Below, one piece after another: positions 22,480 to 47,816 of a DNA stretch of 64,000 bases. Below the pieces are notes generated by a model. The model saw nothing but the letters and a program-made list of their open reading frames with translations. It ran no database searches and was not told the DNA's origin. The stretch lies in the IMG/VR virus record IMGVR_UViG_3300042896_000283, positions 32,001 to 96,000 of that record; one strand, 5' to 3'. Position numbers and translations under genes: made by a program. The first letter of the stretch is position 1. Every line of letters begins with the position of its first letter. Source of the stretch: a virus.

Positions 22480-22559
22480 GATTAATGTTGTAAGTATCAA
22501 AGGTATAAGTTTTATACTTACATACAATGACTGTTGTTAAATTAAAATAACTAAAAAAA

Positions 22560-33000: not shown

Positions 33001-34785
33001 ATCTGAAATCTCTTTAACAAAATCATTAACTTCTTTTTCACTAAATGACTTAGCATCTTTATCTACAAATTTATCATTATATCTTTCTATAAGTTTATCA
33101 ATAGTCTTATTTAATAACTGAGCTTGTCTAACTAATGGTTGAATATTTTCTTTAACTTGTAATTGTCTTATAGAATGAAATAATGAATTAAGCAATTCAT
33201 CTTTATTCAACTTCTCAGATTCAGGAACTGATTTATCAGAAATCTTTGTGTACAATTTATTAAGTTCTCCCAATAACTCATCTATTTTTCTCTTACCAGT
33301 TTTTTCATTCTTAATTGGAACAGGAAGTAAATAATCATCTTTAATGTTTTTAACATTAACATCTCCAATTTTAATACTTAGTAATGCTGGAAGAATATTT
33401 TCTTTTGGATTTGCTTTTGAATATAAAGCCTTTATAGGAATCATTCTTGTTTGTTTGAACTTCTCACCTTTTACGCCATAAGCATTTTGTAAAATAGCTC
33501 TATATTGCTCCATTTGTAGATTCCATGCAGTGTTCTTATACCAAGGAATATCTGTATACTTATCTACATCAAGATCCATAAACTTCCAGTCAAGAATACT
33601 TACATCACCTTCTTTAGTAACAGCTAAGAAATCTACAGTTCCTGCACGATTTGCTTTAGGATTATAGATAGTAACCTCAGCCATGAATCTTGTACCTTTA
33701 GGAAAAGACTTAAGACGTGCTTCAAGATTTTCCTTTAATTTAGTATACATGTCTCTATTATTAGGATTGATTCTAGATATATATCCAGTATCATCTAATT
33801 GTGTATCTCTTAAATATCCATCATCATCTACAAATAAAGTTTGTATATATTCAAGATCAGCATGTCCTGCTGTACCTTTCTCAGCTTTTAAATCATTAAC
33901 AGCATTTTGGAATTCTGTTTTATTTATATCACCATTTCTAAAAGTTCTTTCATACCATTCATCTACTAATGCAGAAACTCTAGGAATTACTTTACCATTA
34001 ATTTTATAACCACCTTCAGTAGGTTTCTCTATACTATTAGATACTTCTTTGATTCTATTAATGATAGCTTCTTGAGGATCTAATTGAAGAAAAGCTTTAC
34101 CTTCTTCTTCTCTAATATCTTCTGCAGTACCAATAATCTTACCTGTCATAACATCCATAGACAATTGATCAAATCCTGATGTAGAGATTAGATTCTTAAA
34201 CCAATCAACTATTTTATCCCATAAGCTTTGCATTTTAGCAATGTTCTCTGGTTTCTCTAAAGATCCTTCATTGTTCTTAATAATAATTTCAGCTAGCACC
34301 TTTGCAATAGCTTCTTCTTTAAGCATAATTACATCAGGCTTTCCATCTAATTGATACATAGGATTTTGTCCGTATGTAGCAAACACTTCTTTTAACATAG
34401 CATAACCATTAATCTCACTCATCAACTTCTTGTATAAAGCTGGATTAGTTTGTTTAATGATAGCAACAGCAAAGTGCATAGCTTCTTCAGGAAGAGACTG
34501 TGCTTCTTTACCTTCTACTACTTGTATAAGTTTCTGTGTAAGTAGAGCAGCACCAGCAGCATCTTGTTTGACACCATCAACAATAACATTTTTCATGGCT
34601 TTTGTATCTACACCAATACGTGTAAGAAAGTCATTAACCATTGCTATTGTTTTAGGAGAAGCTGTAGATGATATAACATCACTAATGTTATTTTGTTTAT
34701 CAAATTCAATTTCAGCTAGAATAGGATTACCTACTCTAGCTAATATTTCTTGGTATGCTGGATCATTTGGATTTATACAAGCCAT
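30061..34785 (-). CDS. Large virion cargo (ejected) protein with PD-(D/E)XK nuclease domain
   Basis: MACINPN N-terminus, LPEEAMHF, KGTAGH...AGTVDFL...ILDWK...QMEQY; directly downstream of the vRNAP gene as in crAss-like phages. Confidence 0.72.
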   Translation of the reverse strand: MACINPNDPAYQEILARVGNPILAEIEFDKQNNISDVISSTASPKTIAMVNDFLTRIGVDTKAMKNVIVDGVKQDAAGAALLTQKLIQVVEGKEAQSLPEEAMHFAVAIIKQTNPALYKKLMSEINGYAMLKEVFATYGQNPMYQLDGKPDVIMLKEEAIAKVLAEIIIKNNEGSLEKPENIAKMQSLWDKIVDWFKNLISTSGFDQLSMDVMTGKIIGTAEDIREEEGKAFLQLDPQEAIINRIKEVSNSIEKPTEGGYKINGKVIPRVSALVDEWYERTFRNGDINKTEFQNAVNDLKAEKGTAGHADLEYIQTLFVDDDGYLRDTQLDDTGYISRINPNNRDMYTKLKENLEARLKSFPKGTRFMAEVTIYNPKANRAGTVDFLAVTKEGDVSILDWKFMDLDVDKYTDIPWYKNTAWNLQMEQYRAILQNAYGVKGEKFKQTRMIPIKALYSKANPKENILPALLSIKIGDVNVKNIKDDYLLPVPIKNEKTGKRKIDELLGELNKLYTKISDKSVPESEKLNKDELLNSLFHSIRQLQVKENIQPLVRQAQLLNKTIDKLIERYNDKFVDKDAKSFSEKEVNDFVKEISDAQYAIGIYTDLYSELKGLLGDSKEDEDLKKDLRRTSENAKELEDDLEVILEEFTANIIAQREEVDNFLAPEKIIKGFTKLFASTATLQSKAIQLLYKKANRAFAYSSMDTLAESKKLEDLKTNFENWAKGKGLSYKNYFDILKKKDSNELIDEYNPEFYTDLKAKTKKELESVSDDRDSSWIRENIDVTAYNEHLKEKLAEEIERIKSKPRLLTSEESDALANTGKLPNEVVMEIYKARNLYDTSTTTSSGWFIYNETRKFPKKDKWTSKEWIELNKPENAPAKEFYNYIIEKNNEYADLGYINKRFARTFLPFIRKNLVEKLITGGQVKLGQQFFTDISVDEGDIGYGQIDPNTGKPVNKIPKYFTRPLEQETSTDLFRTMAFYNEAALRYKYLSEIEDQVMAIVAVEKNKKSIATSMFGKTDIKDGVVQYTETKGANSQLVEDMMKAIIYGQKFVDSQAFDQLLSKMGTWGETLNNKLGVDVFPKDISNRQLSVNKLINQLNNTFQITTLGFNVLSASSNFFGGNAQSLINSGKYFTKKDYLAAEMMIFSNKFGGTDQKKMLGALEYFLPLTENYNREIAKKLSLNTLSQEGIQDFLLILMKQTDLNVQTSNFYAFLNNSIVEDGKVINVRDYLRTQPEYQDKYKGSVADRKAYEEKFDAEVKRLIEEKGVLKLGEIIDNKFVIPGIDQKSDSVIELRRKVQQVSKDALGNLSEDDLRMINMSVVGKSFMVFKNWIPRLVDVRLGGLKFNSASDAYEWGRTRMVMKVLTDEFSLTNPVSGLGKLYNSLTGNEKGVEYMKDMFEKKRNEYENETGKTLEMTESEFIDLARQNIKSQLVDVVFLAIVFTAIAALKAAAPDKDEDPLVINQYKFMMKATDKFKGELMYFYDPTSGLDLISQGFFPSAALITNFARLMDNFRKENWALLTGDDEAAEKTHVIKYLMKTFPFTNQMQGYLPMFYPALAKDLGIKVQSNYGLR

Positions 34786-37700
34786 TAGTAACAGTCTTTT
34801 AGTTTATTAATTACTTCTTCTTTGTTTTCAGCTATAGCTTTATTAATATAATCTTTAGCTTCTTCAGTAGTCATTTTATGCTTGTCAGCAAAATTCTGTA
34901 ATATCTCTTCTTTTCTTTCAGGAGTGAAATCTTCTATCGTATCAAAAGTTTCAGTAGTTCTAAACAAATCTAATTGTTCTCCTGGTTTTATTTGTTCAAC
35001 TTTAGTTTGTGTAGATGTAATAGCTGGTTTACTAGGCATACCTGGTTCAAGAGGCATCACTCTTCTCATTGTAACTGTTACTCTATATGAACCTGGTTCA
35101 TAAGCTTTACCATCTAACTTAGTTGTTAATTCTGGCAAGAAACTATCTTGAGGTTTAGCAAAAGTTCTATGATAAACTTCTCTGTTTACACCATCAACAC
35201 CAAATACATATCCTGCACCTGCTTTAAGATTTAATTGTTTAGGAGCACCATCTCTTGATTCAATAGAGAAGTTTCCTGTACCACCAATGTTAATTCCTAT
35301 TACAGGATAACCAATTGCAGATCTACTTTCATCTACATCATTATGAGAACTAATAAAACTATTAGGTTCATAAAGATTAATAATGGCACCATCATAGTTA
35401 GTCATATCTACACCTGTAGCCTTTTGCATTAACTCTCTAAAACGAGCAGTGATAGGTGCTAAAGGTTGATTATTAATAGAATTATCATAGTATCCATATT
35501 TAGTTTTGTTTCCTGGATTGATAACATCTGGAATATTCATAGCTTGTTTTCCAGGATTGTTTGACTTATAATCCCATCTCAATCCTAATCCAATCATTTT
35601 ACTAGCAGCTTCTCCTTTATTAGTTTTAGCAGCTTGTTCTTCTAAGAATGGTTTTAGATAATCAAATAGTTCAAGTTGTTCATCTTTAGATAAAGCTTCT
35701 TGGTTTACATATATTCCTTCTTTAATTTCTACTCCTTTCGGTTTTCCAATCATTTGTGTAGGTGCAACTATTTCTTCTTCTGTTTGTAAAGATACAATTT
35801 CTTCTGTAATATCACCACCAAAATAATCAATAATAACTGAATCAGGAATCTCATTCTCAATCTTCACTGTACCATTATTAAGAACAGATTTTCTTCCATC
35901 TAAATAGTATTCAGAAACTAGGTTACCATCACCAAGTAAGTTAACTAGTTTGTACACATAATCACCTTTAATAGTTGTTACAGGAGTACCATTTGAGTAT
36001 TTCACTTTTTGATATCCAAATACATCTGTTAATGATGTATCTCCACCTAATCTTACAGCTCTCATTGCTTGTGAACTAATAGTTTGTCCAGTAACAATAT
36101 TGATGTTTTCACCTATTTTATTTGTAATCACTTTAGGCACTTTTACAAAATCACTATTAGCACCATTACGAGCATCATATATTGGACTCAATGTTAACAC
36201 TAGTCTTCTCTCTTGCATAGTTGGTCCATCAAATCCTTCTAAGAATGGTGATACTTTATATTTATATACATCATTACCATATGGATCTTCTCCAACATAT
36301 TCTACTATTGGATCAAAGTTTTCATCTCTTTCAAAATAGAATCTAGGAGTGGTAGTAGGAACTATTGTTTCATCTTTCCAATTGTTCTTTTGAAACATTC
36401 CTTTAGTGAAATATTCTACATCTGCATCATCTACTAATGTATCTATAATAGGTTTGATCTTTTTAGCATAATCTTCTATTGGAACAATGTTATTAATAGA
36501 TATAGAAGATTGATAAGTTCCTTGTAAAAGAGCCACCTTAACAATGTTATTGTACAACTCAGGATCTAACTCTCTTAGTTCTCTCATCATCTCTACATAT
36601 AAGTTCTCATCATATGCTTCTTTTAAATTCACTTTAAGTTTGATAGTTTGTGTACCATCATTCTTTTTAGATGCTTCAGGAACAAGATCTTGTAGCAATC
36701 TCATATTAGGATATTTCACCTTAGCTTTTGCTAATTGCTCAGCAATAGAATTATCTCCTGTAGTTAATGCTAATATCTCTGTATTAAGTCCAGATTTAAT
36801 TTGTACAATAAAGTCAAGGAATGAAGCCTTAGCTTTACTAGCAACTTTAGAGAAATCATCATCTTTCATAAACTCTTGTTCTTCAAATGATCTTAACACT
36901 TCATTAGTGATATCTACAAATTGCTCTTGTTCAAGTTTAATAAATGAACCAACACTTTTCATTGCAAAGTCTATCAATCTTTTTTGATTACCAATTGAAC
37001 TTGAATCCAAAAGTTTATCTACAGAAGAGAATATGTTTTTATTTCTTGCTATATCTGTTCTAGTTGTTTTCTTATGGAAAGTATCAGAGTTTTTAAACTT
37101 AGTTGTATCATAATTTGTAGCTTGTGTAAACTTGAAACTATATTCAGCCATTTTAGAATACTTTAAGAATTCTTTAAGAATAGCTCCTTGTTGTTCATTT
37201 TCTTGTTTAGTTGACATCTTATTCTTATTATTAGCATAAGTTTCAATATTAGCTTCTAAACTATCTACATCAAATGATTCTTTTTCTGTACCTCTAGCTC
37301 CTACTTTAAGAAGACCAAACTTAGCTCTCACCTCATTTATATTTGATGGATTGTATAAGAATGAAGTTCCTTTATTTTCAAGCATGTCTAAGTATTCAGA
37401 AATAATTGGTTGGTTCATGAACCATATTGTATTTTGACCAACACCAATTCTTTCTAAGAACATAAATGTTCCAATAGCAGCATCAGATTTAATAATCTTC
37501 ATAATGAATGGATCTTTTGCAATATCTACTACAGCAGTAGCATATCCAGAAAGTCTATTGGATATCTTTTCTAATGACCCTTTAGCATTTGGTATAGCTG
37601 TATTAGTTCCAGAAAGACTCACCTCACCATCAATTTCATTATGTGGAAGTTTAACTTTACGATCTCCTAATATTGCTCTTTCATCATAAGTTAATTTATC

Positions 37701-40700
37701 TGCTACAGCATCAATGTCCATAACTAGTTTCATTCTTTGTGCAAGAGCATGTCCTGTAATATTTACAGCAACAATACCTACCCATCTTTTACCAGTAAGG
37801 AATGCATGTCTTAGAGTTGTAAGATAGTTTCTATTAACCATTCTATTTTTAATAGATGTCTCATCATCTTTTCTTATATCATCTAGTTCTTTAGATATAT
37901 CTTTTAATCCAGCATCTCCAATAGGAGTAATTAAGTTTTCATAGTTACCTTCTAACGTAATAAGTTTTTCAAATGCATCAAAATATCTATTTTCAAGAGC
38001 TTTCTTATACATGTTATTAACATATTTATCTCTCATCTCTTTGTTCAATAACTTAGAGTCAAGTTTTTTTGTTTTTTCAGAAAGAGATTCTATTTGAGAA
38101 GTCATATATTCTGAAGGTAACATTTCTAAATCATCAGCTTGATAAGTTATTTCATTAATTAAATCTTCATTTCTATTATAGAAATCTTGTTGCTGTAAAG
38201 CTACTGCTTTTGAAATAGGTTTTGTATTTTCAAAAAAGTCAAGTAAGTCTTTTCTAAATTGATCACTATTAGCTATTTTCTCAATACTATTTTTAATTGT
38301 ATTATCATACACTCCACCATAAAATTCTTTTGTAGCTTTTTCAGATTCTTTATAATCAACTGCATGAAGTCTTCCACTCTCATCTACATATACAGATTTA
38401 AGATACATATTTAATTTATCAATATCAAAATCTGATCCAGCTTGAGATGTAATCTCTGAAGGAACAATAACAGTTTTACCCATGAAGTCTGGTAAAAAAC
38501 CTGCCACTCTAATAGCAGCCATAGAAGACATAGCTTGAGCAGGAATACGAAAAGCAATACCTTTTAGAATTCCTTGGTTCTCAGGTTTGTTTAATTCTCT
38601 AATAAGATCTGCATCATTAGCAAATTTACCTTTAAGAGATTTCTTAAACCAATTAGGAATTAATACTTCCATGTAAGGATCTTCTTTTGTAGGAAAATGT
38701 AGTCTATCACTAGTAAGTACCACTTTACTTTTTTGATCTGCTGGTAACGCTTCATATTCAGCTATAGATAGTTTTCTATATCCATCTTTCTCTTTAATTG
38801 CAATACCTCTACCTTGTTTAGAATTCTCCCATCCTGTAACAGGAGCTTGTACATATCCTCCTCCACTCATTTTTGGAGAAACTAATGATTTATTAACCAT
38901 TGAATATACAACATCTTTAATCTGTTTATATGCAGGAGATGCTTCAAATGGAATTCTGAACTCACCATTCTCATCTAATAGAATAGTATCTTTAGCATTA
39001 TTAGAAAGTTGTCTTCTAAATAATTCATGTTCAAGAGTTTTTGAAATGATTGATGGATCTATTAATTCAAATTGACCCATACCAAGATCTTCTACACCAA
39101 AGCTAGAAAGAAGTTGTGTATATGCATTATCATCAAGATCTTTAAGAGCTTGGTTATAATTATCAAATGCTTCTTTTGCTCCTTCAATAGTTTCTTCACC
39201 ATTGTCAAACATATCTAATGTAACAATTTTGGTAGGTTGAGAACCTCTTGTTTGTTCTCCTCCACCTTCATATGAAGTTTCTAATTGAATACCATTTATA
39301 CTCCATGGTACTAGTACTTTAGTATATCTATCAAATGGAGTATCATTAAATGTTCCATCTTGATTATAAAGACTATGAGTTTTCTCTATACCAAGTTTTC
39401 TACCTGATTCAAATATTGCATAATCAATTCTTTCTTTAAACATTTTAATATATAACTTCTCAAGATTAGTTCCTACAACTGCACTATAATATATAGGCAT
39501 TTGAGAAGTTTTATCTAATACAAGTTTTATCTCATTTTCACCAAACTGACTACCTGATACAATTGGTTTAATTATATCAATTACATGTTTAGGTTGTGGT
39601 TCTGTTAATGTTTTTTCATCATTAAGTTTTAATTCTTTACTAGAATATTTATATTCTCCTTTATCAGATAATGATTTTCTAGTGAAAGCCATTTCATATT
39701 GATGCCAAGCTTCAGCTTCTTCAGGCCACTGTCCATTTTTATTTTTAACTTCTCTATAAGCTACATCAGTTATTAAAGAAAAAGCATCTGCTTCATTTAT
39801 ACCTTCATATCTAATTGTATCTAACTCAACATCTTTTAATGTTACTGTAGAAGCATATTCTTTATTACCATGATACCCATAATCATCTGGAGTTAGTTCT
39901 ATATCACCAACTTTGTTTTGACTATCTAAAAATGCATTAAACTCAGGACTATCAAATGTTGTTCTTCTTGGAGATAAGAAAGATTTAACACGTTTAGGTT
40001 CATCTAATATACCATCTTTAATTTTAAATTGATATGGATCTCCAAATAGTATTTTATGAAACTCTATATTATTGATAAAGTTATTTGCATTTACAAATGT
40101 TATTACATTATCAAGTTGTGTTTCAGTCATTTTTAATTTATTGATACCTGACTTCATAGCAAAGTTACTATCAAGACCAACATATTTATACATGTTCTCA
40201 GAATCAGTCTTAGTCTTAACAGCTGATACCACTTCACCTTGTTTAAGTAAAATATCTTTTGTACCTTTTGCAATATCTTGTATAGATTTAGCTACAGCGT
40301 CATTGATAGCTTTACTATTCTTAGCAATATAATCTTTAAACTCATCAGCTGATGTAGCTTCATCATCGATCATTATATTAAGTTCTTTCAATTGATCTGG
40401 AGCATAGTCTTCTAATATCTCTTTAAAGAAACGTAACTCTTTAGCTTTTGAACCAACGCTTTTAAGAGTTTCTCTATTTTTCCAATCACGAGCTAATGCA
40501 ATATCATCATTTAAATATCCTTTAAATATATCAAATATTTCATCCCAAGCTCTACCACCTACTATTTCTTCATATGATATATGATTACCAAGATTCATCA
40601 TCCATTCTGTAGCTCCATCTGCAGGAATAAGAATGTAATAATCTCCATTGATATTTTGGTTAATCTCTTGTGTAAATCTTTGACCTTTAGTTAGTTTACT

Positions 40701-43700
40701 TGTAGAAGTTCCTTTGTTTGTATCAATTGATTTTTTACCATCAATATAAGAAACTTTAATCATCTTAAATCTATTTCCTTCTTCATTGAAAAATAACCCA
40801 CCTTCTTTAAATGTAATAGCATTTTTAGAAAATACATCATTAAGTTCTGGTCTTGATATTTTTAATTCTTCTAATGTTTCTGAATCATTAAATGAATTTT
40901 CAAAAAATGAAGGAGCATTATTATCAGAGTAAGATTGTTTCTTACTTCCTTCAACTCCCATTAATGTATTCTCCTGATTAGGATTAGTCACTTTAACTTG
41001 TAATTCTGCAAGCTTAGCTATTTGTTTATTAATCTTTAATGTCTTACCATCTAATGTACCTATATCTTTAGCTTGTGGAAGATAAGCATATATCTCACCA
41101 ACAGTATCACCAAAATCATCTCGTTGAGTTGATTTTAGTTTCAGGTAATCATCCATATTAAATGTTACACCTAAGTTCTTTAAGAAATTAATCATCTCTT
41201 CAGGATCTTTAGGAAGCTTCTCAGGCCATAACTCTGAGCTTGTATTAACTTGATATGTTTTAGTTTCACTATTGAATCTAACTAACCCATTACGAGTTTT
41301 AGCTAGTGCTCTCATTTGACTAAACCAATCTTGTTCTACTTGTTTAGTTATTGTAAATTGATTAGCAGGAGCAGTGTACACTTCATTTCCTATAACATAT
41401 TGTATAACTGCATTTGGTTTTTGTTTTGTAAATGTTTGATAGAAGTTAATAAACAATCTCCAGTCTTCAGTTTTAAATTTACCAAAGTCTATATTTCTTG
41501 AAAGACCACCATTTGTATCAACAGAATAAGATCCACCAATACGTTGAAAGAATCTAACATACGTAGCATCATATCCAGCTAAATCAACTAACTTATCAAT
41601 AACTTTATCAATACTTGTTGTATTAGATATCTTATCTAATAATGTAGCAAACACTCTACTAAAATTCACTAACTTAAATCCTCCAACAGAAGACTTTTCT
41701 CTTATAGGTAATTTTAAACTAGTAGAGTTTTGTTGATTAGTAGGAACTACTTGTGGTAATGTAGCAGCAACAAGTTTAATAGCAAATGGAGAAGTTTTTT
41801 TATGATCAACTGTAAATGCTTCTTGAGAATAACCAACACTAGTTACATTCTCATCATTAATATCTACAAGATCTTCTTCATTAAAGTTTACACCTATTGT
41901 ACGTAATAATTGTTTACCTTGTGTAAATAAAGCATTGAAACGTTCTTCTCCTAATTGTTGATATACATTACCAGTGATATATGCTTGTTTAATATAATTA
42001 TATATTTCAGCTCCTGTAATTTGTTGTAAATCAAATATAGATTCTTTATTATCACCAAATATATAATTTGCTGCACGAGAAAATATATCCTCTGCATATT
42101 CAGCAGCTTGTGTTTCTGTTATACCAGGAATTCTACTGTAAGCAGGTGCTCCTTTCTTTTGTGATTCAGAGATGATAAATTCTTTATACTTACCAGCATC
42201 AATAGCTTTAAAAAGATCTTTAGCTAATGAAGGTTTAGCAGATTTAAAGAAGTTAATAATTCTTCTAAAGAATCTAAGTACTAATTCACTTAATGATCTA
42301 GCAGGAAGTTTACCCACTTTGAATTCACCAAAATCATCAGCTATTTTTTCTTCTATTTGTTTATCTGTAGCACTAGCATAATCTATTTTCTTACCAGAAG
42401 CTCTATCTGTAAATTGTCCAGGTTTGTTTCTAAACTCATTATTAATATCAATTCTTTCATCAGCTGTTAAGAAATGTTGATACACAGGATGGAACAGTTC
42501 ATGGTAACCTACTGTTCTTGGTCCAGCTTTGTAAAACTTAGCTACACCATCAACAAATACACCAAAAGCTTTTTCTCCATCATATGTATCTACAAGATCT
42601 TCTAACACTTCTAATGGTACACCAGAAAGTTTTTCAGCTTGGAAGTCTTTTAATATTTGAATATCATTCTCAGACATTACATCTTCTTGAGCTGTAACTC
42701 CCACTCTCATGTAGTTATCATCAGGTAGGTCAGTATCATTTATATCAATAGGATCTATTTTCTCTTCAGGAGTAATCTCTGGACTAACTTCTTCTACAGT
42801 GGTAGTAGGAGCTTCATCTGCAACTACAGGAGCTTCTTCTACTTGTTGTGTACTTTGTATTTGTTTTAATTCATAAATAAGTTTATCACCAACAAATCTT
42901 ACAACACGTTGATCATCACTATCTTCTTCATTAAATTTATTTTCATTTACTAAATAAGGATCTATAGTATTTTTTAACAATTCTTTATTTGCTGCAGCTT
43001 TTGATATTGTATCATTCACTTTAACATCTACACTTTCTACATTACCATCAGCATCTACAGTTCCTGTAAACTCAACTGGACCATTTGCAAATGGATATAT
43101 ATTAGATGTTGTTCCATCCATTGTATATTCTCCTATCTTACCAGGAGTTGTTGGTGCAATAGGAGCAGTTTTAGCAGCCTGTACAACAGGAGCAGGTTTT
43201 ATAATAGGAAGATCAAAATCAATTAATGTAGCATACTTTTGAGAGAATGAATAAGGAACAGTTGGTGTAGGAGCAGCCACTTTAGTTGTAAGTGGTGTAT
43301 TTACACTAGAACGAGATGTTGTACCATCAGGAAGTTTACTTGATAATAAATAAGATTGATAGTTTTTCCAATATCTAGCTACAAGTTGTCCTTCAGCATT
43401 CTTCTCTCCTGTATATTCATAGAACTTACTAGTAAGATCTTTGATAGTTTTACTATTAATATTATGATGCGTATCTGTAAGTTGTTTTACAATCTCAGCT
43501 TCTTTGTTTTCAATATCTATAATAGGATATTTTACACCGCCTAAATAGATACTTCTACTATTAGTATCAATATAGAATTGATTACCTGATGTAGATGCAC
43601 CTTTACGTAAATACAATACATTCTGTAAGTATGCTAAATAGTTTACATCTATATCTAATGGTTTACCAGATGTAGATTTCTCTCTTATATCAAGAGCCAA

Positions 43701-46700
43701 TGCTTTAATTACTTGATATACAGCATTAGCTTTCTCTTTACCTAATATACTATTGTTCAAGATTTCTAATACATCTTCATATTGAAGAACAACTACACCC
43801 TTTTCTTTAAATGTAATATTTCTTCCTTTATGAGATATAAATCCTGCAGTGTTTATTTGAAGAAGTTTTGGTTGAGAAGATATTTTATTCTCAGGTATTA
43901 ATATACCTCCAATTTGATTTCTCTCGTATTTACCATCTGAAAGTTTATTAATAATAGCTATACCTCTAGATACATCAATATCATATACTTTATGTTCTAC
44001 TGTATTGTTTGCAAATAATCCAGCTCTCACTTGTCTCCAACCATTAGCTGCAGATGCAAGATTTTCTTTTTCACCTTGTCTATATCTAGGAACTCTTTGC
44101 CCAGTTTTAGGATCTGTATATGTATAATACAATTCTGTTGTAGGCATAGCTTGGAATATAGCTTGACTTACATCAATTGGTTGTCCAACTTCTCCTAAAC
44201 GTTTTCCTGTTTTATCTACAAAATAAGATTTACTTTTATCTTTTTCAACAAATACTTGTGCAACAAATCCTAAATCAATATCATTCACTTTATCAACTTC
44301 AGTGATTGGTCTACCAAACTGAAGTTCTGTAAGCCCTTTAAGTCCTAAAGCTTCTTCATTATTAGTTGTAACTAACATTGCACCTATTTTAGATGCGTTC
44401 TTGAAGTTCTTTATGTTGTTTAAGAACTCTCTAGAGTTTTTAACATGCTGAGGTGCATTAACACGATTCTGAACATTCTCAGATTCACTAGTACCAGATA
44501 TAAAGAAGTTTCTCCATGTCTTTAAGAAACTCTCATCTTCTTTTACAACAGCTTCTGATGTTGTAGTTTCTGTAGGAATAGGTGTAGCAATTTCTCCAGA
44601 ATTAAGCTCTGCTTTATCCTGTTGTCTATCCACCTCATTTTTAGTCACAAGCATTGCTTGCTCTTCTTTTTCTAGAGCAGCATTCTTTTCTTTTACAGCT
44701 TTGTATGTTTCATCTATATTATTTGTTATAACAGCAATAGCTTCATTTAATAAGTTTTCATTAGTTGTACCAAATAATCTTCTAAAGAATGTTTTTAATG
44801 AATTAACAAATGCTTCCCATGTAGAAGCTTGTGTATTCTTATATGGAATAGTTTGTAAATATCTTTGAAACTCTCTATTAGATAATGCTTCTGTTGCAAA
44901 CTCATATATATTTTTGAATGCATAGTATTCACCATTCTTAATCAATCCTGCTTCAGCATACTTATTAGGATCATTCTTAAATGTTTCTTGTACAAACTTG
45001 AATAATGGATCTAACTCTTTAAAGAATTGTCCATTAGTATCTGATAAAGCATATGTGGTTAAGTCATGTCCTATCTCATGTAATAATATAAATTCTACAG
45101 GAATACTTCCACTCTCATAATCATCAGCAGTATCTTCATAGTTAATTCTACTCAATGCTGAATTTGCATCTACACCTCTAGTAGATGTTCCAGGAGTACT
45201 TAGTGTTCTATCACCTAATATGATTTTACTATCTCTTGTAGTGTATTTTAAGAAACCTAATGCTAATTGTTTTTCAAGTGTAGTGGCATATGGTGATTCA
45301 GCAATCTTCTCTAACACTTCATATTTACTCTTCTCTCCTTCACCATATTGATTTACAATATCAGCATATTTTCTTTTATCTGATTTAAATTTATTTCTAC
45401 TTTTACCAAAATATTGTGAATCATCTGTTTTAGGAGCAGCAGTTCTTGTCTTCTTTCCTTCTGGTGTAACTTCTGCTTTCTCTCCAGTAAATGAATAGTT
45501 TTGTGGGTTATCTTTTAAATCATTATATTCATTAACAAATTGTTGTCTTCTTTTAGAAAGTTCAACTACATCTTTTAATTCTTGTTTAACAAGATCTGTA
45601 TCAATTCTATCTGACTTTTGTTGATCTACATTATATAACACCTTAGCAAGGCTTACTGATGTATCACTACTTAATTCATCATTTATAACATCCTGTACAG
45701 GAATATCTGCTCTTAGAAGTCTTGCAGATACTTGAGGAATACGTATATCATAATCAGCTATCTTAGCAGCTGCATACACCATCTTATCAATAATTAATGG
45801 AGAATACTTTCTAATTTGATTACCTGCTTCATTAACTAATGGTTCACCTTCTGCATTTTGCATTACTGTACCACTATACCTAAGATTTAAAGATTTATAT
45901 AATTCTTCTGTATTCTTTGCTGTATTTTCAAATGAGTTTAATCTTTTTTGAAATGATTCAACTGTATCATTAATATTAGCTAGTCCTTCTTCTTTTAAAT
46001 CACTAAGTCCTTCTTTAGACATTCCAGCTTGTCTAAGATCTTTGACATCATCCATAATCATATCAAATCTTCCAAACTTAATACGTGGAGCAAGATATGT
46101 ATGTAACATATCTGTATTAAGATCTCTAGCTTCTAATTCATCTCCTTGAATAGTTGCATCTCTTTGTTGTTCTTGTAGAGTAGTAAATCTATCTACAGCT
46201 TCAAGTTTTTCTTTAAATGCAGCTTGAAATGTAGGAGCATTGTTAAGTTCACCAATAAATCTTTCTGTATTAGATTTTGCAGCTTTACCTTTAGCAATTT
46301 CTCCTTGAGGTCCAAATGTTTGCATTAATCCTCCAGTAATACCACCAAGTATTCCACTTTCAATACCTCCTTTAGATACTAATGCACCAACATCTTTTCC
46401 AGCTTCATCTTTACCAACCATTCCATATAAGAACCCATCAGTCCAAGCACTTGCTTCTTTACCATTACGTCCTTTATTAAAATAGTTTTCTGTACCTATT
46501 TGTAAAGCATACTGACCAATCTCTTGTCCAGCTTCTTTAGGATCAAATGCATACTTACTTACTTTAGCAGCTCTTTCATAAAGTTTACCAAATTTAGTAG
46601 CTGCACCTTCTGCTGCTACATATTTACCTTCTTTTAATAATACATCATCAGCATGTCCTAATAAACTATTAGCAGCTTGTTTCTCAGCAGCATATGAACT

Positions 46701-47816
46701 TCCCATTAATTTAGGAAGCTGAGCATATTCTGTCACTCCTAATAATGCTAAATTTCCGAAGAAAGAAGTTTTACCTACACTTTCTGAAATTGTATTTATA
46801 TTATCTAATTCAGCACCTTCAGGACCATTACCAAAATGATCATCTTTATATTTTTGAATTAGATTATTTCTATATTCATTTGATGTTTGTAATGCTTCAA
46901 AAGAAGCTTCACCTGCAGATGAATATGCAGCTATTACTGTTCTTCTGAACTTATCTTGTAATCCAGCTATTTTGTTTGTTGTTTTTGCTATATCTAAAAT
47001 AGCAGATTCTCTAGCTGTAAGATCAGCAATAGATGAAATATTCTTTTCAAGAATTGCTGCAGCTTCAATATTTTTACCAGCAGAGAAAGCTCTTGCTGTA
47101 TTTTTTAATAGAGGAGTGAATAATTTAAATGATTGAGATGCTTCAGCAGCTATTGCACCTTCTGCTGCAAATCCACCTAATGCTGCACCTGTAGCACTTA
47201 ATGCACCTTCAGCTATATTACCAGATACCATTGCTCCAACAGCAAATCCAGAATTCTTAATTAATTTATCAAATAAGAAATTTGTTTTCCACCAGTTGTC
47301 AGGAGAATACCAAGATGCATTTGTTTCTTTATCTGTATAATAGTTTGGTAGATAGTTTTGATCCACTTCATTATTATACTGATCTAGTTTTTGCATTACA
47401 GGATTATCCCATATATCTGCAAGTCTTCCAGAGAATGGAGATTTTGCTAAACCATATAACATACCGAAACTTCCTGCAACAGTAGTAGCTGCAAGATTAA
47501 CTCCTTTTAATATACCATTAGTAGCTTGTGATAGTGCAGACTGTGCATTAGCATTTTGATCTTCTATATCAATTGTATTACTAGAATACATATTGTATCT
47601 TCTATTCTCATACAATTCATTTGCACTAACAGTAGGAAGTAACCCTTTACCTACCATTGGACCTTTGCCAAATATTGGATCTCCATTATCTCTTCCTGAT
47701 AAATCTGTATTCAAAGATGTATAATTATCTGGAGCAGGAGTTGATGGACTAGGCAGATTAGGAAGTTTCTGATCTGGGTTTATAAGAATTGGATTAAGGT
47801 TTTTAAAATCTGGCAT
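34785..47816 (-). CDS. Virion RNA polymerase polyprotein (two zincin-like domains, two-barrel RNAP, C-terminal AlkB-like 2OG-Fe(II) dioxygenase)
   Basis: GSDFDIDK (DFDIDK at 38415-38432), FRIPAQ, HEIGH, HELFH, INLY...SHNDVDE...YHRT...RVTVTMR. Confidence 0.88.
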   Translation of the reverse strand: MPDFKNLNPILINPDQKLPNLPSPSTPAPDNYTSLNTDLSGRDNGDPIFGKGPMVGKGLLPTVSANELYENRRYNMYSSNTIDIEDQNANAQSALSQATNGILKGVNLAATTVAGSFGMLYGLAKSPFSGRLADIWDNPVMQKLDQYNNEVDQNYLPNYYTDKETNASWYSPDNWWKTNFLFDKLIKNSGFAVGAMVSGNIAEGALSATGAALGGFAAEGAIAAEASQSFKLFTPLLKNTARAFSAGKNIEAAAILEKNISSIADLTARESAILDIAKTTNKIAGLQDKFRRTVIAAYSSAGEASFEALQTSNEYRNNLIQKYKDDHFGNGPEGAELDNINTISESVGKTSFFGNLALLGVTEYAQLPKLMGSSYAAEKQAANSLLGHADDVLLKEGKYVAAEGAATKFGKLYERAAKVSKYAFDPKEAGQEIGQYALQIGTENYFNKGRNGKEASAWTDGFLYGMVGKDEAGKDVGALVSKGGIESGILGGITGGLMQTFGPQGEIAKGKAAKSNTERFIGELNNAPTFQAAFKEKLEAVDRFTTLQEQQRDATIQGDELEARDLNTDMLHTYLAPRIKFGRFDMIMDDVKDLRQAGMSKEGLSDLKEEGLANINDTVESFQKRLNSFENTAKNTEELYKSLNLRYSGTVMQNAEGEPLVNEAGNQIRKYSPLIIDKMVYAAAKIADYDIRIPQVSARLLRADIPVQDVINDELSSDTSVSLAKVLYNVDQQKSDRIDTDLVKQELKDVVELSKRRQQFVNEYNDLKDNPQNYSFTGEKAEVTPEGKKTRTAAPKTDDSQYFGKSRNKFKSDKRKYADIVNQYGEGEKSKYEVLEKIAESPYATTLEKQLALGFLKYTTRDSKIILGDRTLSTPGTSTRGVDANSALSRINYEDTADDYESGSIPVEFILLHEIGHDLTTYALSDTNGQFFKELDPLFKFVQETFKNDPNKYAEAGLIKNGEYYAFKNIYEFATEALSNREFQRYLQTIPYKNTQASTWEAFVNSLKTFFRRLFGTTNENLLNEAIAVITNNIDETYKAVKEKNAALEKEEQAMLVTKNEVDRQQDKAELNSGEIATPIPTETTTSEAVVKEDESFLKTWRNFFISGTSESENVQNRVNAPQHVKNSREFLNNIKNFKNASKIGAMLVTTNNEEALGLKGLTELQFGRPITEVDKVNDIDLGFVAQVFVEKDKSKSYFVDKTGKRLGEVGQPIDVSQAIFQAMPTTELYYTYTDPKTGQRVPRYRQGEKENLASAANGWRQVRAGLFANNTVEHKVYDIDVSRGIAIINKLSDGKYERNQIGGILIPENKISSQPKLLQINTAGFISHKGRNITFKEKGVVVLQYEDVLEILNNSILGKEKANAVYQVIKALALDIREKSTSGKPLDIDVNYLAYLQNVLYLRKGASTSGNQFYIDTNSRSIYLGGVKYPIIDIENKEAEIVKQLTDTHHNINSKTIKDLTSKFYEYTGEKNAEGQLVARYWKNYQSYLLSSKLPDGTTSRSSVNTPLTTKVAAPTPTVPYSFSQKYATLIDFDLPIIKPAPVVQAAKTAPIAPTTPGKIGEYTMDGTTSNIYPFANGPVEFTGTVDADGNVESVDVKVNDTISKAAANKELLKNTIDPYLVNENKFNEEDSDDQRVVRFVGDKLIYELKQIQSTQQVEEAPVVADEAPTTTVEEVSPEITPEEKIDPIDINDTDLPDDNYMRVGVTAQEDVMSENDIQILKDFQAEKLSGVPLEVLEDLVDTYDGEKAFGVFVDGVAKFYKAGPRTVGYHELFHPVYQHFLTADERIDINNEFRNKPGQFTDRASGKKIDYASATDKQIEEKIADDFGEFKVGKLPARSLSELVLRFFRRIINFFKSAKPSLAKDLFKAIDAGKYKEFIISESQKKGAPAYSRIPGITETQAAEYAEDIFSRAANYIFGDNKESIFDLQQITGAEIYNYIKQAYITGNVYQQLGEERFNALFTQGKQLLRTIGVNFNEEDLVDINDENVTSVGYSQEAFTVDHKKTSPFAIKLVAATLPQVVPTNQQNSTSLKLPIREKSSVGGFKLVNFSRVFATLLDKISNTTSIDKVIDKLVDLAGYDATYVRFFQRIGGSYSVDTNGGLSRNIDFGKFKTEDWRLFINFYQTFTKQKPNAVIQYVIGNEVYTAPANQFTITKQVEQDWFSQMRALAKTRNGLVRFNSETKTYQVNTSSELWPEKLPKDPEEMINFLKNLGVTFNMDDYLKLKSTQRDDFGDTVGEIYAYLPQAKDIGTLDGKTLKINKQIAKLAELQVKVTNPNQENTLMGVEGSKKQSYSDNNAPSFFENSFNDSETLEELKISRPELNDVFSKNAITFKEGGLFFNEEGNRFKMIKVSYIDGKKSIDTNKGTSTSKLTKGQRFTQEINQNINGDYYILIPADGATEWMMNLGNHISYEEIVGGRAWDEIFDIFKGYLNDDIALARDWKNRETLKSVGSKAKELRFFKEILEDYAPDQLKELNIMIDDEATSADEFKDYIAKNSKAINDAVAKSIQDIAKGTKDILLKQGEVVSAVKTKTDSENMYKYVGLDSNFAMKSGINKLKMTETQLDNVITFVNANNFINNIEFHKILFGDPYQFKIKDGILDEPKRVKSFLSPRRTTFDSPEFNAFLDSQNKVGDIELTPDDYGYHGNKEYASTVTLKDVELDTIRYEGINEADAFSLITDVAYREVKNKNGQWPEEAEAWHQYEMAFTRKSLSDKGEYKYSSKELKLNDEKTLTEPQPKHVIDIIKPIVSGSQFGENEIKLVLDKTSQMPIYYSAVVGTNLEKLYIKMFKERIDYAIFESGRKLGIEKTHSLYNQDGTFNDTPFDRYTKVLVPWSINGIQLETSYEGGGEQTRGSQPTKIVTLDMFDNGEETIEGAKEAFDNYNQALKDLDDNAYTQLLSSFGVEDLGMGQFELIDPSIISKTLEHELFRRQLSNNAKDTILLDENGEFRIPFEASPAYKQIKDVVYSMVNKSLVSPKMSGGGYVQAPVTGWENSKQGRGIAIKEKDGYRKLSIAEYEALPADQKSKVVLTSDRLHFPTKEDPYMEVLIPNWFKKSLKGKFANDADLIRELNKPENQGILKGIAFRIPAQAMSSMAAIRVAGFLPDFMGKTVIVPSEITSQAGSDFDIDKLNMYLKSVYVDESGRLHAVDYKESEKATKEFYGGVYDNTIKNSIEKIANSDQFRKDLLDFFENTKPISKAVALQQQDFYNRNEDLINEITYQADDLEMLPSEYMTSQIESLSEKTKKLDSKLLNKEMRDKYVNNMYKKALENRYFDAFEKLITLEGNYENLITPIGDAGLKDISKELDDIRKDDETSIKNRMVNRNYLTTLRHAFLTGKRWVGIVAVNITGHALAQRMKLVMDIDAVADKLTYDERAILGDRKVKLPHNEIDGEVSLSGTNTAIPNAKGSLEKISNRLSGYATAVVDIAKDPFIMKIIKSDAAIGTFMFLERIGVGQNTIWFMNQPIISEYLDMLENKGTSFLYNPSNINEVRAKFGLLKVGARGTEKESFDVDSLEANIETYANNKNKMSTKQENEQQGAILKEFLKYSKMAEYSFKFTQATNYDTTKFKNSDTFHKKTTRTDIARNKNIFSSVDKLLDSSSIGNQKRLIDFAMKSVGSFIKLEQEQFVDITNEVLRSFEEQEFMKDDDFSKVASKAKASFLDFIVQIKSGLNTEILALTTGDNSIAEQLAKAKVKYPNMRLLQDLVPEASKKNDGTQTIKLKVNLKEAYDENLYVEMMRELRELDPELYNNIVKVALLQGTYQSSISINNIVPIEDYAKKIKPIIDTLVDDADVEYFTKGMFQKNNWKDETIVPTTTPRFYFERDENFDPIVEYVGEDPYGNDVYKYKVSPFLEGFDGPTMQERRLVLTLSPIYDARNGANSDFVKVPKVITNKIGENINIVTGQTISSQAMRAVRLGGDTSLTDVFGYQKVKYSNGTPVTTIKGDYVYKLVNLLGDGNLVSEYYLDGRKSVLNNGTVKIENEIPDSVIIDYFGGDITEEIVSLQTEEEIVAPTQMIGKPKGVEIKEGIYVNQEALSKDEQLELFDYLKPFLEEQAAKTNKGEAASKMIGLGLRWDYKSNNPGKQAMNIPDVINPGNKTKYGYYDNSINNQPLAPITARFRELMQKATGVDMTNYDGAIINLYEPNSFISSHNDVDESRSAIGYPVIGINIGGTGNFSIESRDGAPKQLNLKAGAGYVFGVDGVNREVYHRTFAKPQDSFLPELTTKLDGKAYEPGSYRVTVTMRRVMPLEPGMPSKPAITSTQTKVEQIKPGEQLDLFRTTETFDTIEDFTPERKEEILQNFADKHKMTTEEAKDYINKAIAENKEEVINKLKDCY

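What the first reader, a model, noticed from the sequence alone, without database searches (positions are those of the whole stretch)
35058..35745. AlkB-like dioxygenase fused to the C-terminus of the virion RNA polymerase
Seen: YDGAIINLY...SHNDVDE (HxD)...YHRT (distal H)...RVTVTMRR, the complete AlkB-type 2OG-Fe(II) signature, in frame within the 4343-aa protein. Known: crAss-like vRNAPs are ejected with the DNA, and AlkB enzymes oxidatively demethylate nucleic acids. Inference: an injected repair or base-editing enzyme that acts on the incoming genome or first transcripts before any phage gene expression.
Basis: partly seen in the sequence, partly recalled or inferred. Interest (0 to 1): 0.7.

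Follow-up and report, generated by a model that had tools for sequence, protein, structure and literature searches.

The report
Swappable AlkB cassette on injected phage polymerase
A complete crAss-like phage genome carries an intact AlkB-type nucleic-acid demethylase near the end of the giant RNA polymerase that such phages inject with their DNA, and this enzyme is a swappable, horizontally exchanged cassette, most likely a pre-loaded tool that clears methyl lesions from the incoming template.

Summary
The 4343-aa ORF at 34785-47816 (-) is a crAss-type virion RNA polymerase: it matches PDB 6VR4 at E 5e-24 and has DFDID at residue 3129. Residues ~4024-4273 form an intact AlkB domain. It passes Pfam PF13532 (48 bits against a cut-off of 31). 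The AF2 model has pLDDT 94.5 and its best structural match is E. coli AlkB. N4147, Y4149, H4158, D4160, H4216, R4245 and R4251 are invariant in 120 relatives. dN/dS is 0.07-0.16.

The fusion is not an artefact. G000 is a complete 113-kb genome with terminal repeats. At least 175 giant proteins carry this AlkB, and 115 of the 120 examined also carry the polymerase core.

The AlkB is an optional, mobile cassette. 35 of the 38 closest polymerases (core at least 70% identical) lack it, and some have a clean empty site. Polymerases only 21-50% identical in the core carry a 75-98% identical cassette with sharp borders (dS 0.10 against saturated flanks). In relatives the neighbouring modules include NADAR, an SF1 helicase, DUF7831, RNase H and an ADP-ribosyltransferase.

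The function is inferred, not shown: injected and tethered to the polymerase, it removes 1mA/3mC-type lesions from the single-stranded template or the first transcripts.

The scan has already noted this fusion in at least 10 other genomes. I found no paper that describes it.

The parts
34785..47816 (-). Giant 4343-aa ORF: zincin-like N-terminal part, crAss-type virion RNA polymerase, AlkB cassette and C-terminal tail
   Evidence: A single uninterrupted ORF. It is collinear with independent assemblies P0003 (4350 aa, 90% identical) and P0004 (4471 aa). The genome is a complete 113,094-bp record with direct terminal repeats.
45066..45080 (-). HEIGH (residues 913-917), a zincin-like HExxH motif in the N-terminal third
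   Evidence: Found by motif search. Residues 100-811 match separate 'RNA-polymerase subunit' genes of gut crAss phages. phi14:2 gp65 is described as a zincin-like virion protein that is fused to the RNAP in some phages. The motif alone is weak evidence.
42762..42854 (-). Acidic and proline-rich linker (residues ~1655-1685), a first variable slot or fusion junction
   Evidence: Close relatives have 80-300 aa insertions here, or begin a separate gene here (P0262 and P0294).
37230..40295 (-). Virion RNA polymerase core (residues 2508-3529), homologous to phi14:2 gp66
   Evidence: phmmer against PDB 6VR4 gives E 4.2e-21 and 5.1e-24.
38418..38432 (-). DFDID catalytic metal-binding motif (residues 3129-3133)
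   Evidence: It aligns with gp66 1361-DFDID-1365. The aspartates of this motif are required for gp66 activity.
34998..35747 (-). AlkB cassette (residues ~4024-4273), running from GKPKGVEIKEGIYVNQ to RRVMPLEPGMPSKPAITSTQTKV
   Evidence: The borders come from an alignment of empty and filled sites. The same borders recur in unrelated flanking contexts. Pfam PF13532 covers residues 4040-4251. The AF2 model has pLDDT 94.5, and Foldseek's best match is E. coli AlkB.
35337..35345 (-). H4158-N-D4160, the HxD iron ligands. D4162 and E4163 follow, giving HxDxDE as in E. coli AlkB H131/D133/D135/E136.
   Evidence: Aligned to E. coli AlkB LHQDKDE. H, D and E4163 are invariant in 120 relatives, and D4162 is 70-90% conserved.
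35370..35378 (-). N4147-L-Y4149, the 2-oxoglutarate-contacting N and Y (E. coli AlkB N120 and Y122)
   Evidence: Aligned to AlkB INRY and invariant in 120 relatives.
35169..35171 (-). H4216, the distal iron ligand
   Evidence: Aligned to AlkB H187 and invariant.
35064..35084 (-). R4245-VTVTM-R4251, the RxxxxxR 2-oxoglutarate-binding motif
   Evidence: Both arginines are invariant in 120 relatives. The profile alignment to OsALKBH1 ends on the same motif.
34962..34976 (-). QLDLF (residues 4281-4285) within KPGEQLDLF, a short conserved motif right after the cassette
   Evidence: It is retained in alleles that lack AlkB. 61 QLxLF motifs lie in the last 100 aa of 276 giant proteins. Its function was not tested. 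It resembles the beta-clamp-binding consensus (my own knowledge).
34788..34961 (-). C-terminal tail (residues 4286-4343), ending in KDCY
   Evidence: In P0262, P0265 and P0266 the tail is 67-69% identical and follows the polymerase body directly, with no AlkB.

Best explanation
Shown: the 4343-aa gene encodes a crAss-type virion RNA polymerase. It has a zincin-like part at the N-terminus, a polymerase core with DFDID, and a C-terminal payload slot that holds one complete AlkB-family Fe(II)/2-oxoglutarate dioxygenase domain, joined by flexible acidic and proline-rich linkers. The AlkB is a discrete cassette of about 250 aa with constant borders. It is under purifying selection, it is absent from most of the closest polymerases, and it has been exchanged recently between polymerase genes that are otherwise very divergent.

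Inferred: like phi14:2 gp66, the protein is packed in the capsid and ejected with the DNA. Once in the oxic host cytoplasm the domain takes up Fe(II), 2-oxoglutarate and O2. Because it is tethered to a polymerase that reads single-stranded DNA, it acts in cis. It oxidatively removes N1-methyladenine/N3-methylcytosine-type alkyl lesions from the exposed template strand, and possibly from nascent early RNA, before any phage gene has been expressed. These lesions would otherwise stall the very few injected polymerase molecules.

The domain is one item of an exchangeable kit of nucleic-acid adduct-reversal and remodelling enzymes that rides on this polymerase. Relatives also carry NADAR, an SF1 helicase, RNase H, DUF7831 and an ADP-ribosyltransferase.
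For: AlkB identity:
- Pfam PF13532 at E 1.8e-12, above the cut-off.
- The AF2 model has pLDDT 94.5 and pTM 0.91.
- The top 23 Foldseek PDB hits are E. coli AlkB, with TM 0.65/0.76 and E 2.5e-12.
- The family profile hits OsALKBH1 at 8e-10 and E. coli AlkB at 4e-4.
- HNDVDE aligns with AlkB HQDKDE, which includes the D135/E136 positions that read the 1mA/3mC exocyclic amine (the role of those residues is from my own knowledge of AlkB structures).

Intactness and selection:
- N4147, Y4149, H4158, D4160, H4216, R4245 and R4251 are invariant in 120 relatives.
- dN/dS is 0.07-0.16 in 15 pairwise comparisons.

Polymerase:
- 6VR4 match at E 5e-24, with DFDID aligned.
- 115 of the 120 AlkB-bearing giant proteins contain the polymerase core by iterated profile search.

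Mobility:
- 35 of the 38 polymerases with a core at least 70% identical lack AlkB. 26 of 102 at 40-70% core identity have it.
- The AlkB is 75-98% identical in proteins whose core is only 21-50% identical.
- In L001 the cassette is 97% identical at nucleotide level (dS 0.10), while its flanks are 20-68% identical at protein level.
- A clean empty site is seen in P0262, P0265 and P0266.

Payload slot: relatives carry NADAR, ART-PolyVal, DUF7831, RNase H, an SF1 helicase and HATPase next to the AlkB.

Ejection and single-stranded template: gp66 is a virion protein, is translocated into the cell, transcribes early genes, and transcribes ssDNA or denatured DNA but not dsDNA.
Against: - No virion proteomics or activity data exist for this protein or for any AlkB-bearing relative.
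- The polyprotein may be cleaved, as suggested for fused gp65-66-67 forms. That would free the AlkB from the polymerase.
- 1mA and 3mC arise mainly in single-stranded nucleic acid, so a packaged double-stranded genome should carry few of them.
- Most close relatives do without the domain, so it is not needed for basic infection.
- Its company (NADAR, ART) fits counter-defence as well as repair.
- The habitat, and so the availability of O2, could not be checked.
Confidence: 0.5

Rival explanations
1. Counter-defence or epigenetic eraser. The injected AlkB strips base marks rather than accidental damage. For example, it could remove methyl groups that a host defence, or the previous host's methyltransferases, put on phage DNA (m6A, m4C or others). 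That would let the phage escape modification-dependent restriction or undo a defence-inflicted modification. It would belong to the same swappable kit as NADAR, which reverses ADP-ribosylation of DNA.
For: - Rapid gain, loss and horizontal exchange of the cassette are typical of arms-race genes.
- Neighbouring modules in relatives are NADAR and ART-PolyVal, which are linked to conflict systems.
- E. coli AlkB has been crystallised on m6A DNA (PDB 4NID, among the hits).
- Iyer et al. proposed resetting of methyl marks for jumbo-phage AlkBs (PMC7824862).
Against: - The HxDxDE motif and the closest fold match point to canonical AlkB repair enzymes, not to m6A erasers such as ALKBH5 or FTO, which rank far lower.
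- A few injected molecules could not demethylate a 113-kb genome quickly.
- I know of no defence system that methylates N1-A or N3-C of phage DNA.
Confidence: 0.25
2. RNA-directed enzyme. The domain demethylates RNA, either the first phage transcripts (repair, as proposed for the AlkB domains in plant RNA-virus replicases) or host tRNA/rRNA, to tilt translation.
For: - AlkB domains sit in replicase polyproteins of Closteroviridae, Betaflexiviridae and picorna-like viruses, and these appear among the structural matches.
- The domain is tethered to an RNA-synthesising enzyme.
- Some relatives add RNase H next to the AlkB.
Against: - The RNA-virus AlkBs are only 13-17% identical and score below E. 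coli AlkB.
- Early transcripts are newly made and short-lived, so they gather little damage.
- Too few enzyme molecules are delivered to alter the host tRNA pool.
Confidence: 0.15
3. The domain is a passenger with no role in nucleic-acid chemistry. It could be a structural or packaging spacer, a protein hydroxylase, or a selfish in-frame mobile cassette that is merely tolerated in a permissive linker.
For: - It is dispensable in most close relatives.
- It sits in a flexible linker where other inserts are tolerated.
- It moves horizontally.
Against: - All iron and 2OG ligands are invariant across 120 diverged copies.
- dN/dS is about 0.1.
- The residues corresponding to the AlkB base-recognition D/E pair are kept.
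- The cassette encodes no recognisable mobility function.
Confidence: 0.07
4. The fusion is an assembly or gene-calling artefact.
For: None found.
Against: - The ORF runs uninterrupted for 13 kb in a complete genome with terminal repeats.
- The same architecture is found in at least 175 giant proteins from JGI, ENA, NCBI, Logan and Tara assemblies.
Confidence: 0.01

Closest known systems
E. coli AlkB (PDB 2FD8, 3I3M, 3KHC, 3BI3)
   Same: - Same double-stranded beta-helix fold with a nucleotide-recognition lid (TM 0.65/0.76).
- Same HxD...H iron triad.
- Same N/Y and RxxxxxR 2OG contacts.
- Same HxDxDE spacing.
   Different: - Only 18-20% identical.
- About 22 extra residues in the lid between the RWDY and GYY segments (seen by eye in the alignment).
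- Never free-standing in the loci examined. It is embedded in a protein of more than 4000 aa.
- It belongs to a narrow clade: only 208 cluster representatives among 1.84 billion reach E 1e-3, and ordinary bacterial AlkBs do not reach that level.
Cellulophaga phage phi14:2 gp66 virion RNA polymerase (PDB 6VR4), with neighbours gp65 and gp67
   Same: - Homologous polymerase core with the DFDID motif.
- Gene set in a block of giant virion-protein genes.
- A zincin-like HExxH partner, here fused.
   Different: - gp66 is 2180 aa and the match ends at its residue 1730.
- No AlkB is reported for it.
- The window's protein is twice as long, is fused to the N-terminal partner, and carries the AlkB cassette plus a QLDLF tail.
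AlkB domains in replicase polyproteins of plant and other RNA viruses (Closteroviridae, Betaflexiviridae, picorna-like)
   Same: An AlkB domain embedded as an optional, sporadically distributed module in a viral polymerase polyprotein. These are structural matches in BFVD.
   Different: - RNA viruses of eukaryotes, where the AlkB sits in a replicase made after entry rather than in a pre-packaged, injected DNA-dependent RNAP.
- 13-17% identity.
Polyvalent proteins of phages and conjugative elements (Iyer et al. 2017, PMC5512222)
   Same: Giant multidomain proteins thought to be delivered with the DNA, built from shuffled enzymatic modules used in phage-host conflict. ART-PolyVal occurs next to the AlkB in relative P0073.
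   Different: That paper does not mention AlkB, 2OG dioxygenases, NADAR or crAss-like polymerases (0 occurrences). Here the scaffold is a two-barrel RNAP.
Human ALKBH3-ASCC3 helicase coupling and the ALKBH2-PCNA interaction
   Same: - An AlkB enzyme coupled to a helicase that supplies single-stranded substrate. Dango et al. 2011 is cited in PMC8616854. Relatives P0015 and P0006 place an SF1 helicase right after the AlkB.
- A possible sliding-clamp motif follows the cassette. The ALKBH2-PCNA link is from my own knowledge.
   Different: Those are separate eukaryotic proteins that interact non-covalently. Here the parts are fused in one phage protein, and clamp binding is only a motif resemblance.

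Membership tests
AlkB family of Fe(II)/2-oxoglutarate dioxygenases (Pfam PF13532) | Profile match above the curated threshold | tested here: met
   48.3 bits against a cut-off of 31.2, E 1.8e-12, profile positions 7-194 of 194. 54.5 bits in the genome search.
AlkB family of Fe(II)/2-oxoglutarate dioxygenases (Pfam PF13532) | Double-stranded beta-helix fold with an N-terminal nucleotide-recognition lid | tested here: met
   AF2 model with pLDDT 94.5. The top Foldseek PDB hits are all E. coli AlkB, followed by OsALKBH1 and ALKBH2/3/5/6/8.
AlkB family of Fe(II)/2-oxoglutarate dioxygenases (Pfam PF13532) | HxD...H iron-binding triad | tested here: met
   H4158, D4160 and H4216 align with AlkB H131, D133 and H187 and are invariant in 120 relatives.
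AlkB family of Fe(II)/2-oxoglutarate dioxygenases (Pfam PF13532) | 2-oxoglutarate contacts (N/Y upstream of HxD, and the C-terminal RxxxxxR) | tested here: met
   N4147, Y4149, R4245 and R4251 are invariant.
AlkB family of Fe(II)/2-oxoglutarate dioxygenases (Pfam PF13532) | Oxidative dealkylation of nucleic-acid bases | not testable with these tools
   Needs an enzyme assay. Only the conserved HxDxDE substrate-side motif supports it.
crAss-type virion RNA polymerase (phi14:2 gp66-like two-barrel RNAP) | Sequence homology to gp66 across the catalytic region | tested here: met
   6VR4 at E 5.1e-24, query residues 2508-3529 against gp66 residues 813-1730.
crAss-type virion RNA polymerase (phi14:2 gp66-like two-barrel RNAP) | DFDxD catalytic motif | tested here: met
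   DFDID at residues 3129-3133, aligned to gp66 residues 1361-1365.
crAss-type virion RNA polymerase (phi14:2 gp66-like two-barrel RNAP) | Packaged in the virion and ejected into the host | not testable with these tools
   Shown only for phi14:2 gp66. Here the only support is the gene's position among giant genes, one of which hits virion structural PHROGs.
Polyvalent proteins (Iyer et al. 2017) | A very large phage or conjugative-element protein that combines several unrelated enzymatic domains, with shuffling between relatives | tested here: met
   Zincin-like motif, RNAP and AlkB here. Relatives add NADAR, ART-PolyVal, helicase, RNase H, DUF7831 and HATPase in varying order.
Polyvalent proteins (Iyer et al. 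2017) | One of the signature domains listed in that study (MuF, ART-PolyVal, SNF2 helicase, etc.) in this protein itself | tested here: not met
   Pfam finds only PF13532 in the window's protein. ART-PolyVal is found only in relatives, in P0073 just below the cut-off at 30.3 against 31.2 bits, and in P0349 by precomputed annotation.

The most novel reading that the evidence does not exclude
The AlkB is a domain-sized, in-frame mobile cassette that recombines at constant linker peptides (..PKG.. and ..PLEPGMPSKP..) between injected polymerases of very different crAss-like phages. It works as a polymerase-tethered, transcription-coupled direct-reversal repair enzyme, which would be the first case of an RNA polymerase carrying its own lesion-removing domain. 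The conserved C-terminal QLxLF motif would dock the ejected complex onto the host sliding clamp.
Probability: 0.2. Interest if true: 0.8.

Novelty: new variant of a known kind. Interest (0 to 1): 0.6.

Why it matters
Injected phage proteins act before any phage gene is expressed, so they decide whether an infection starts at all.

If this reading is right, environmental crAss-like phages pre-load their first-minute polymerase with exchangeable enzymes that reverse chemical adducts on nucleic acids: AlkB for alkyl groups and NADAR for ADP-ribose.

It would give a natural example of a repair enzyme physically coupled to a single-subunit RNA polymerase. It would also define a module system with fixed linker junctions that could be used to map what threatens phage DNA on entry. 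And it would add an AlkB clade that appears to live almost only inside these giant proteins.

All of this is easy to test with a 250-aa recombinant domain.

Tried and rejected
- PHROGs gave no family for the giant protein.
- tblastn of the last 519 aa against 50,697 deposited phage genomes found nothing at E 1e-5. No cultured or deposited phage in that set has this AlkB clade. Gut crAss phages match only the polymerase parts, at under 25% identity.
- Literature searches turned up no paper that describes the fusion: crAss-like + AlkB, polyvalent proteins + AlkB, Crassvirales + 2OG-Fe, Crassvirales + alkylat, and vRNAP + marine. The library lacks most subscription journals. Yutin 2018 and the Nature version of Drobysheva 2021 could not be read, so I used the preprint.
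Sample origin and habitat of the relatives, and the context of the short 'stand-alone' homologues, could therefore not be checked.
- Relatives of the 240-aa stand-alone-looking P0176 in viral contigs again lie inside ORFs of more than 2000 aa.
- Single-linkage clustering of the alternative C-terminal modules chained into one cluster and was not informative.
By eye the two junctions share only a weak aaaacc..aggag similarity, so I make no claim of a target-site duplication.
- Base composition does not mark the cassette as foreign: GC 0.33 against 0.31 +/- 0.016 for the ORF.
- An internal Met just before the cassette (QMIGKPKG) is not conserved in P0004, so I dropped the idea of separate translation.
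Full report
**What is there**

The window holds a 4343-aa ORF on the minus strand at 34785-47816. Pfam finds one family in the whole protein: PF13532 (2OG-FeII_Oxy_2, the AlkB family) at residues 4040-4251, with E 1.8e-12 and 48.3 bits against a cut-off of 31.2.

**The carrier is a crAss-type virion RNA polymerase**

- phmmer against PDB chains matches residues 2508-3529 to phi14:2 gp66 (6VR4) at E 4e-21 to 5e-24.
[quoted passage not shown] Here the motif is at residues 3129-3133.
- The preprint of Drobysheva et al. shows four things about gp66: it is a virion protein; it is translocated with the DNA; it transcribes early genes; and it transcribes ssDNA or denatured DNA efficiently but not dsDNA. 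The preprint also notes that in some phages gp65 (zincin-like), gp66 and gp67 are fused into one polyprotein.
- Here the N-terminal third has an HEIGH motif at residue 913. It also matches the separate 'RNA-polymerase subunit' genes of gut crAss phages. The protein therefore looks like such a fusion.
- The flanking genes are also giant. One of them hits virion-structural PHROGs.
- The record is a complete 113,094-bp genome with direct terminal repeats and a single AlkB.

**The AlkB domain is intact and under selection**

- An AF2 model of residues 4025-4260, built from a 40-row alignment, has pLDDT 94.5 and pTM 0.91.
- Foldseek against the PDB puts E. coli AlkB first (ranks 1-23, TM 0.65/0.76, E 2.5e-12). 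OsALKBH1, ALKBH2, ALKBH3 and others follow. ALKBH5 ranks much lower.
- A profile of the clade hits OsALKBH1 at 8e-10 and E. coli AlkB at 4e-4.
- In the pairwise alignment, HNDVDE pairs with AlkB HQDKDE, INLY with INRY, and YH with YH. The iron triad is therefore H4158, D4160 and H4216. The 2OG contacts are N4147, Y4149, R4245 and R4251. The acidic pair that reads the substrate's exocyclic amine in AlkB (D135/E136, from my own knowledge) is also present.
- In an alignment of 120 giant relatives, the seven metal and 2OG residues and E4163 are invariant.
- Nei-Gojobori dN/dS against 15 related loci is 0.07-0.16.

**The fusion is real and widespread**

- A search with residues 3990-4343, restricted to proteins of 2388-7601 aa, found 175 giant proteins with this domain in JGI, ENA, NCBI, Logan and Tara data.
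- An iterated profile of the polymerase core recognises 115 of the 120 listed.
- A full HMMER scan of 1.84 billion cluster representatives with the 225-aa domain found only 208 hits at E 1e-3. Nearly all are giant proteins or contig-end fragments of them.
- Ordinary bacterial AlkBs are not reached, so this is a narrow AlkB clade that lives almost entirely inside these polymerases.
- A few hits of 240-300 aa look like free-standing genes with the same borders (P0176, P0197, P0239 and P0257).

**It is an optional, mobile cassette**

- Searching with the polymerase core (residues 2500-3530) found 711 giant homologues.
- Of the 38 with a core at least 70% identical, only 3 have AlkB: the window's protein, P0003 and P0004. 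Of the 102 at 40-70% core identity, 26 have it.
- The close relatives are collinear with the query from residue 1 to ~4010-4060 and then diverge.
- In P0262, P0265 and P0266 the polymerase body (..EEVVSLPEEEIVAPVETIS) runs straight into the query's own C-terminal tail (EEVKPGEQLTLF..KDCY). That is a clean empty site.
- Conversely, proteins whose core is only 21-50% identical carry an AlkB that is 75-98% identical. Examples are P0005 (98% against 45%) and P0022 (87% against 21%).
- In L001 the cassette is 97% identical at nucleotide level (dS 0.10) and 98-100% at protein level. The 600 residues upstream are 22-68% identical, and the downstream sequence is 20-30% identical.
- The cassette borders are constant whatever lies beside them..PKG(V/E)(K/E)VK(E/D)GIYVNQ at the start, and RRVMPL(E/Q)PGMP(S/T)KPAI at the end.
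- In a few proteins the cassette lies N-terminal of the core (P0028, P0043 and P0102).
- More distant AlkB lineages, about 55% and about 30-35% identical, also sit in such polymerases, including P0298, P0299 and P0374. The association is therefore old and recurrent.
- Composition does not flag the cassette as foreign.

**What relatives carry in the same slot**

Pfam scans place these modules directly after the AlkB:

- NADAR in P0012.
- ART-PolyVal in P0073, just under the cut-off.
- DUF7831 in P0008, and before the AlkB in P0051.
- RNase H in P0087.
- A RecD/Pif1-like SF1 helicase in P0015.
- HATPase_c in P0051.

By eye, SLOG-like (GGQTGVD) and ASCH-like modules also occur. Many polymerases have NADAR, helicase or DUF7831 without AlkB. 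The C-terminus of this polymerase family is therefore a payload slot.

**How it most likely works**

Shown: an intact AlkB sits on a flexible linker at the end of a homologue of a polymerase known to be injected and to read single-stranded DNA.

Inferred: the few injected molecules must transcribe early genes from DNA that has sat in a virion outside a cell. 1mA/3mC-type lesions block polymerases, and AlkB removes them best from single strands. Tethering would place the enzyme at the only single-stranded DNA that matters. Fe(II), 2OG and O2 would come from the host.

The O2 requirement fits two observations: the clade has no close homologue (tblastn, E 1e-5) among deposited phage genomes, which include the gut crAss phages that match the polymerase, and it is present in Tara and other environmental data. 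I could not check habitats.

The company of NADAR, another remover of base adducts, and of helicases that create single strands fits the same theme. It fits a counter-defence reading equally well. I put that rival at 0.25, the RNA-directed rival at 0.15, and the main reading at 0.5.

**Comparison with what is known**

- The domain passes every testable AlkB criterion.
- The carrier passes the two testable criteria for a crAss-type virion polymerase.
- The closest concepts are the polyvalent proteins of Iyer et al. 2017 and the AlkB domains in RNA-virus replicases. The Iyer paper does not mention AlkB, NADAR or crAss polymerases. The RNA-virus AlkB domains are structural matches at 13-17% identity.
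- JGI's pipeline already labels several of these giant proteins 'alkylated DNA repair dioxygenase AlkB'.
- I found no paper that describes the fusion.
- Earlier notes of this scan report the same fusion, and the 'swappable cassette' reading, in at least 10 other genomes. My tests here were made independently on this window and agree with them.

**Verdict**

It is a new variant of a known kind, of moderate to high interest, and directly testable.

Noticed in passing
window 34962-34976 (-), residues 4281-4285: KPGEQLDLF sits right after the AlkB cassette. The (K/Q)PGEQL[DGTN]LF motif is kept in relatives with or without AlkB. 61 QLxLF motifs lie in the last 100 aa of 276 giant proteins, against about 14 expected over their whole lengths. 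It matches the bacterial beta-sliding-clamp-binding consensus QL[SD]LF (my own knowledge), so the injected polymerase may dock on the host clamp.
   Followed up: partly
window 34788-34800 (-), and the C-termini of P0005, P0008, P0012, P0261, P0270, L001, L003 and L022: All the different C-terminal tail variants of these polymerases end with a cysteine 1-5 residues from the end (KDCY, KSIC, SCVPF, PCNS, NEC, NETC). Unexplained.
   Followed up: no
window 42762-42854 (-), residues ~1655-1685: A second variable slot lies in an acidic and proline-rich linker. Close relatives have 80-300 aa insertions here, or start a separate polymerase gene here (P0262 and P0294). It probably marks the junction of the fused gp65/67-like and gp66-like parts.
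   Followed up: partly
window 45066-45080 (-), residue 913: An HEIGH zincin-like motif lies in the N-terminal third, which matches separate 'RNA-polymerase subunit' genes of gut crAss phages. A second HExxH (HELFH) is at residue 1772.
   Followed up: no
P0012, P0008, P0015, P0087, P0073 and P0051; L002, L004: The payload slot of related polymerases holds NADAR, DUF7831, an SF1 helicase, RNase H, ART-PolyVal, HATPase_c, a SLOG-like GGQTGVD module and an ASCH-like module, in varying orders around the AlkB.
   Followed up: partly
window 30061-34787 (-): The stop codon of the giant ORF overlaps the start of the next 1574-aa ORF (TAATG). That ORF has only a weak exonuclease PHROG hit at residues 298-442. 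The same arrangement of two giant genes is seen in L031 and L032.
   Followed up: no
window 21439-22527 (-) and 55403-61423 (-): A collagen-like tail-fibre protein hits many tail-fibre PHROGs. A 2006-aa protein hits virion structural PHROGs at E 8e-104. These hits place the giant gene in a late, structural gene block.
   Followed up: no
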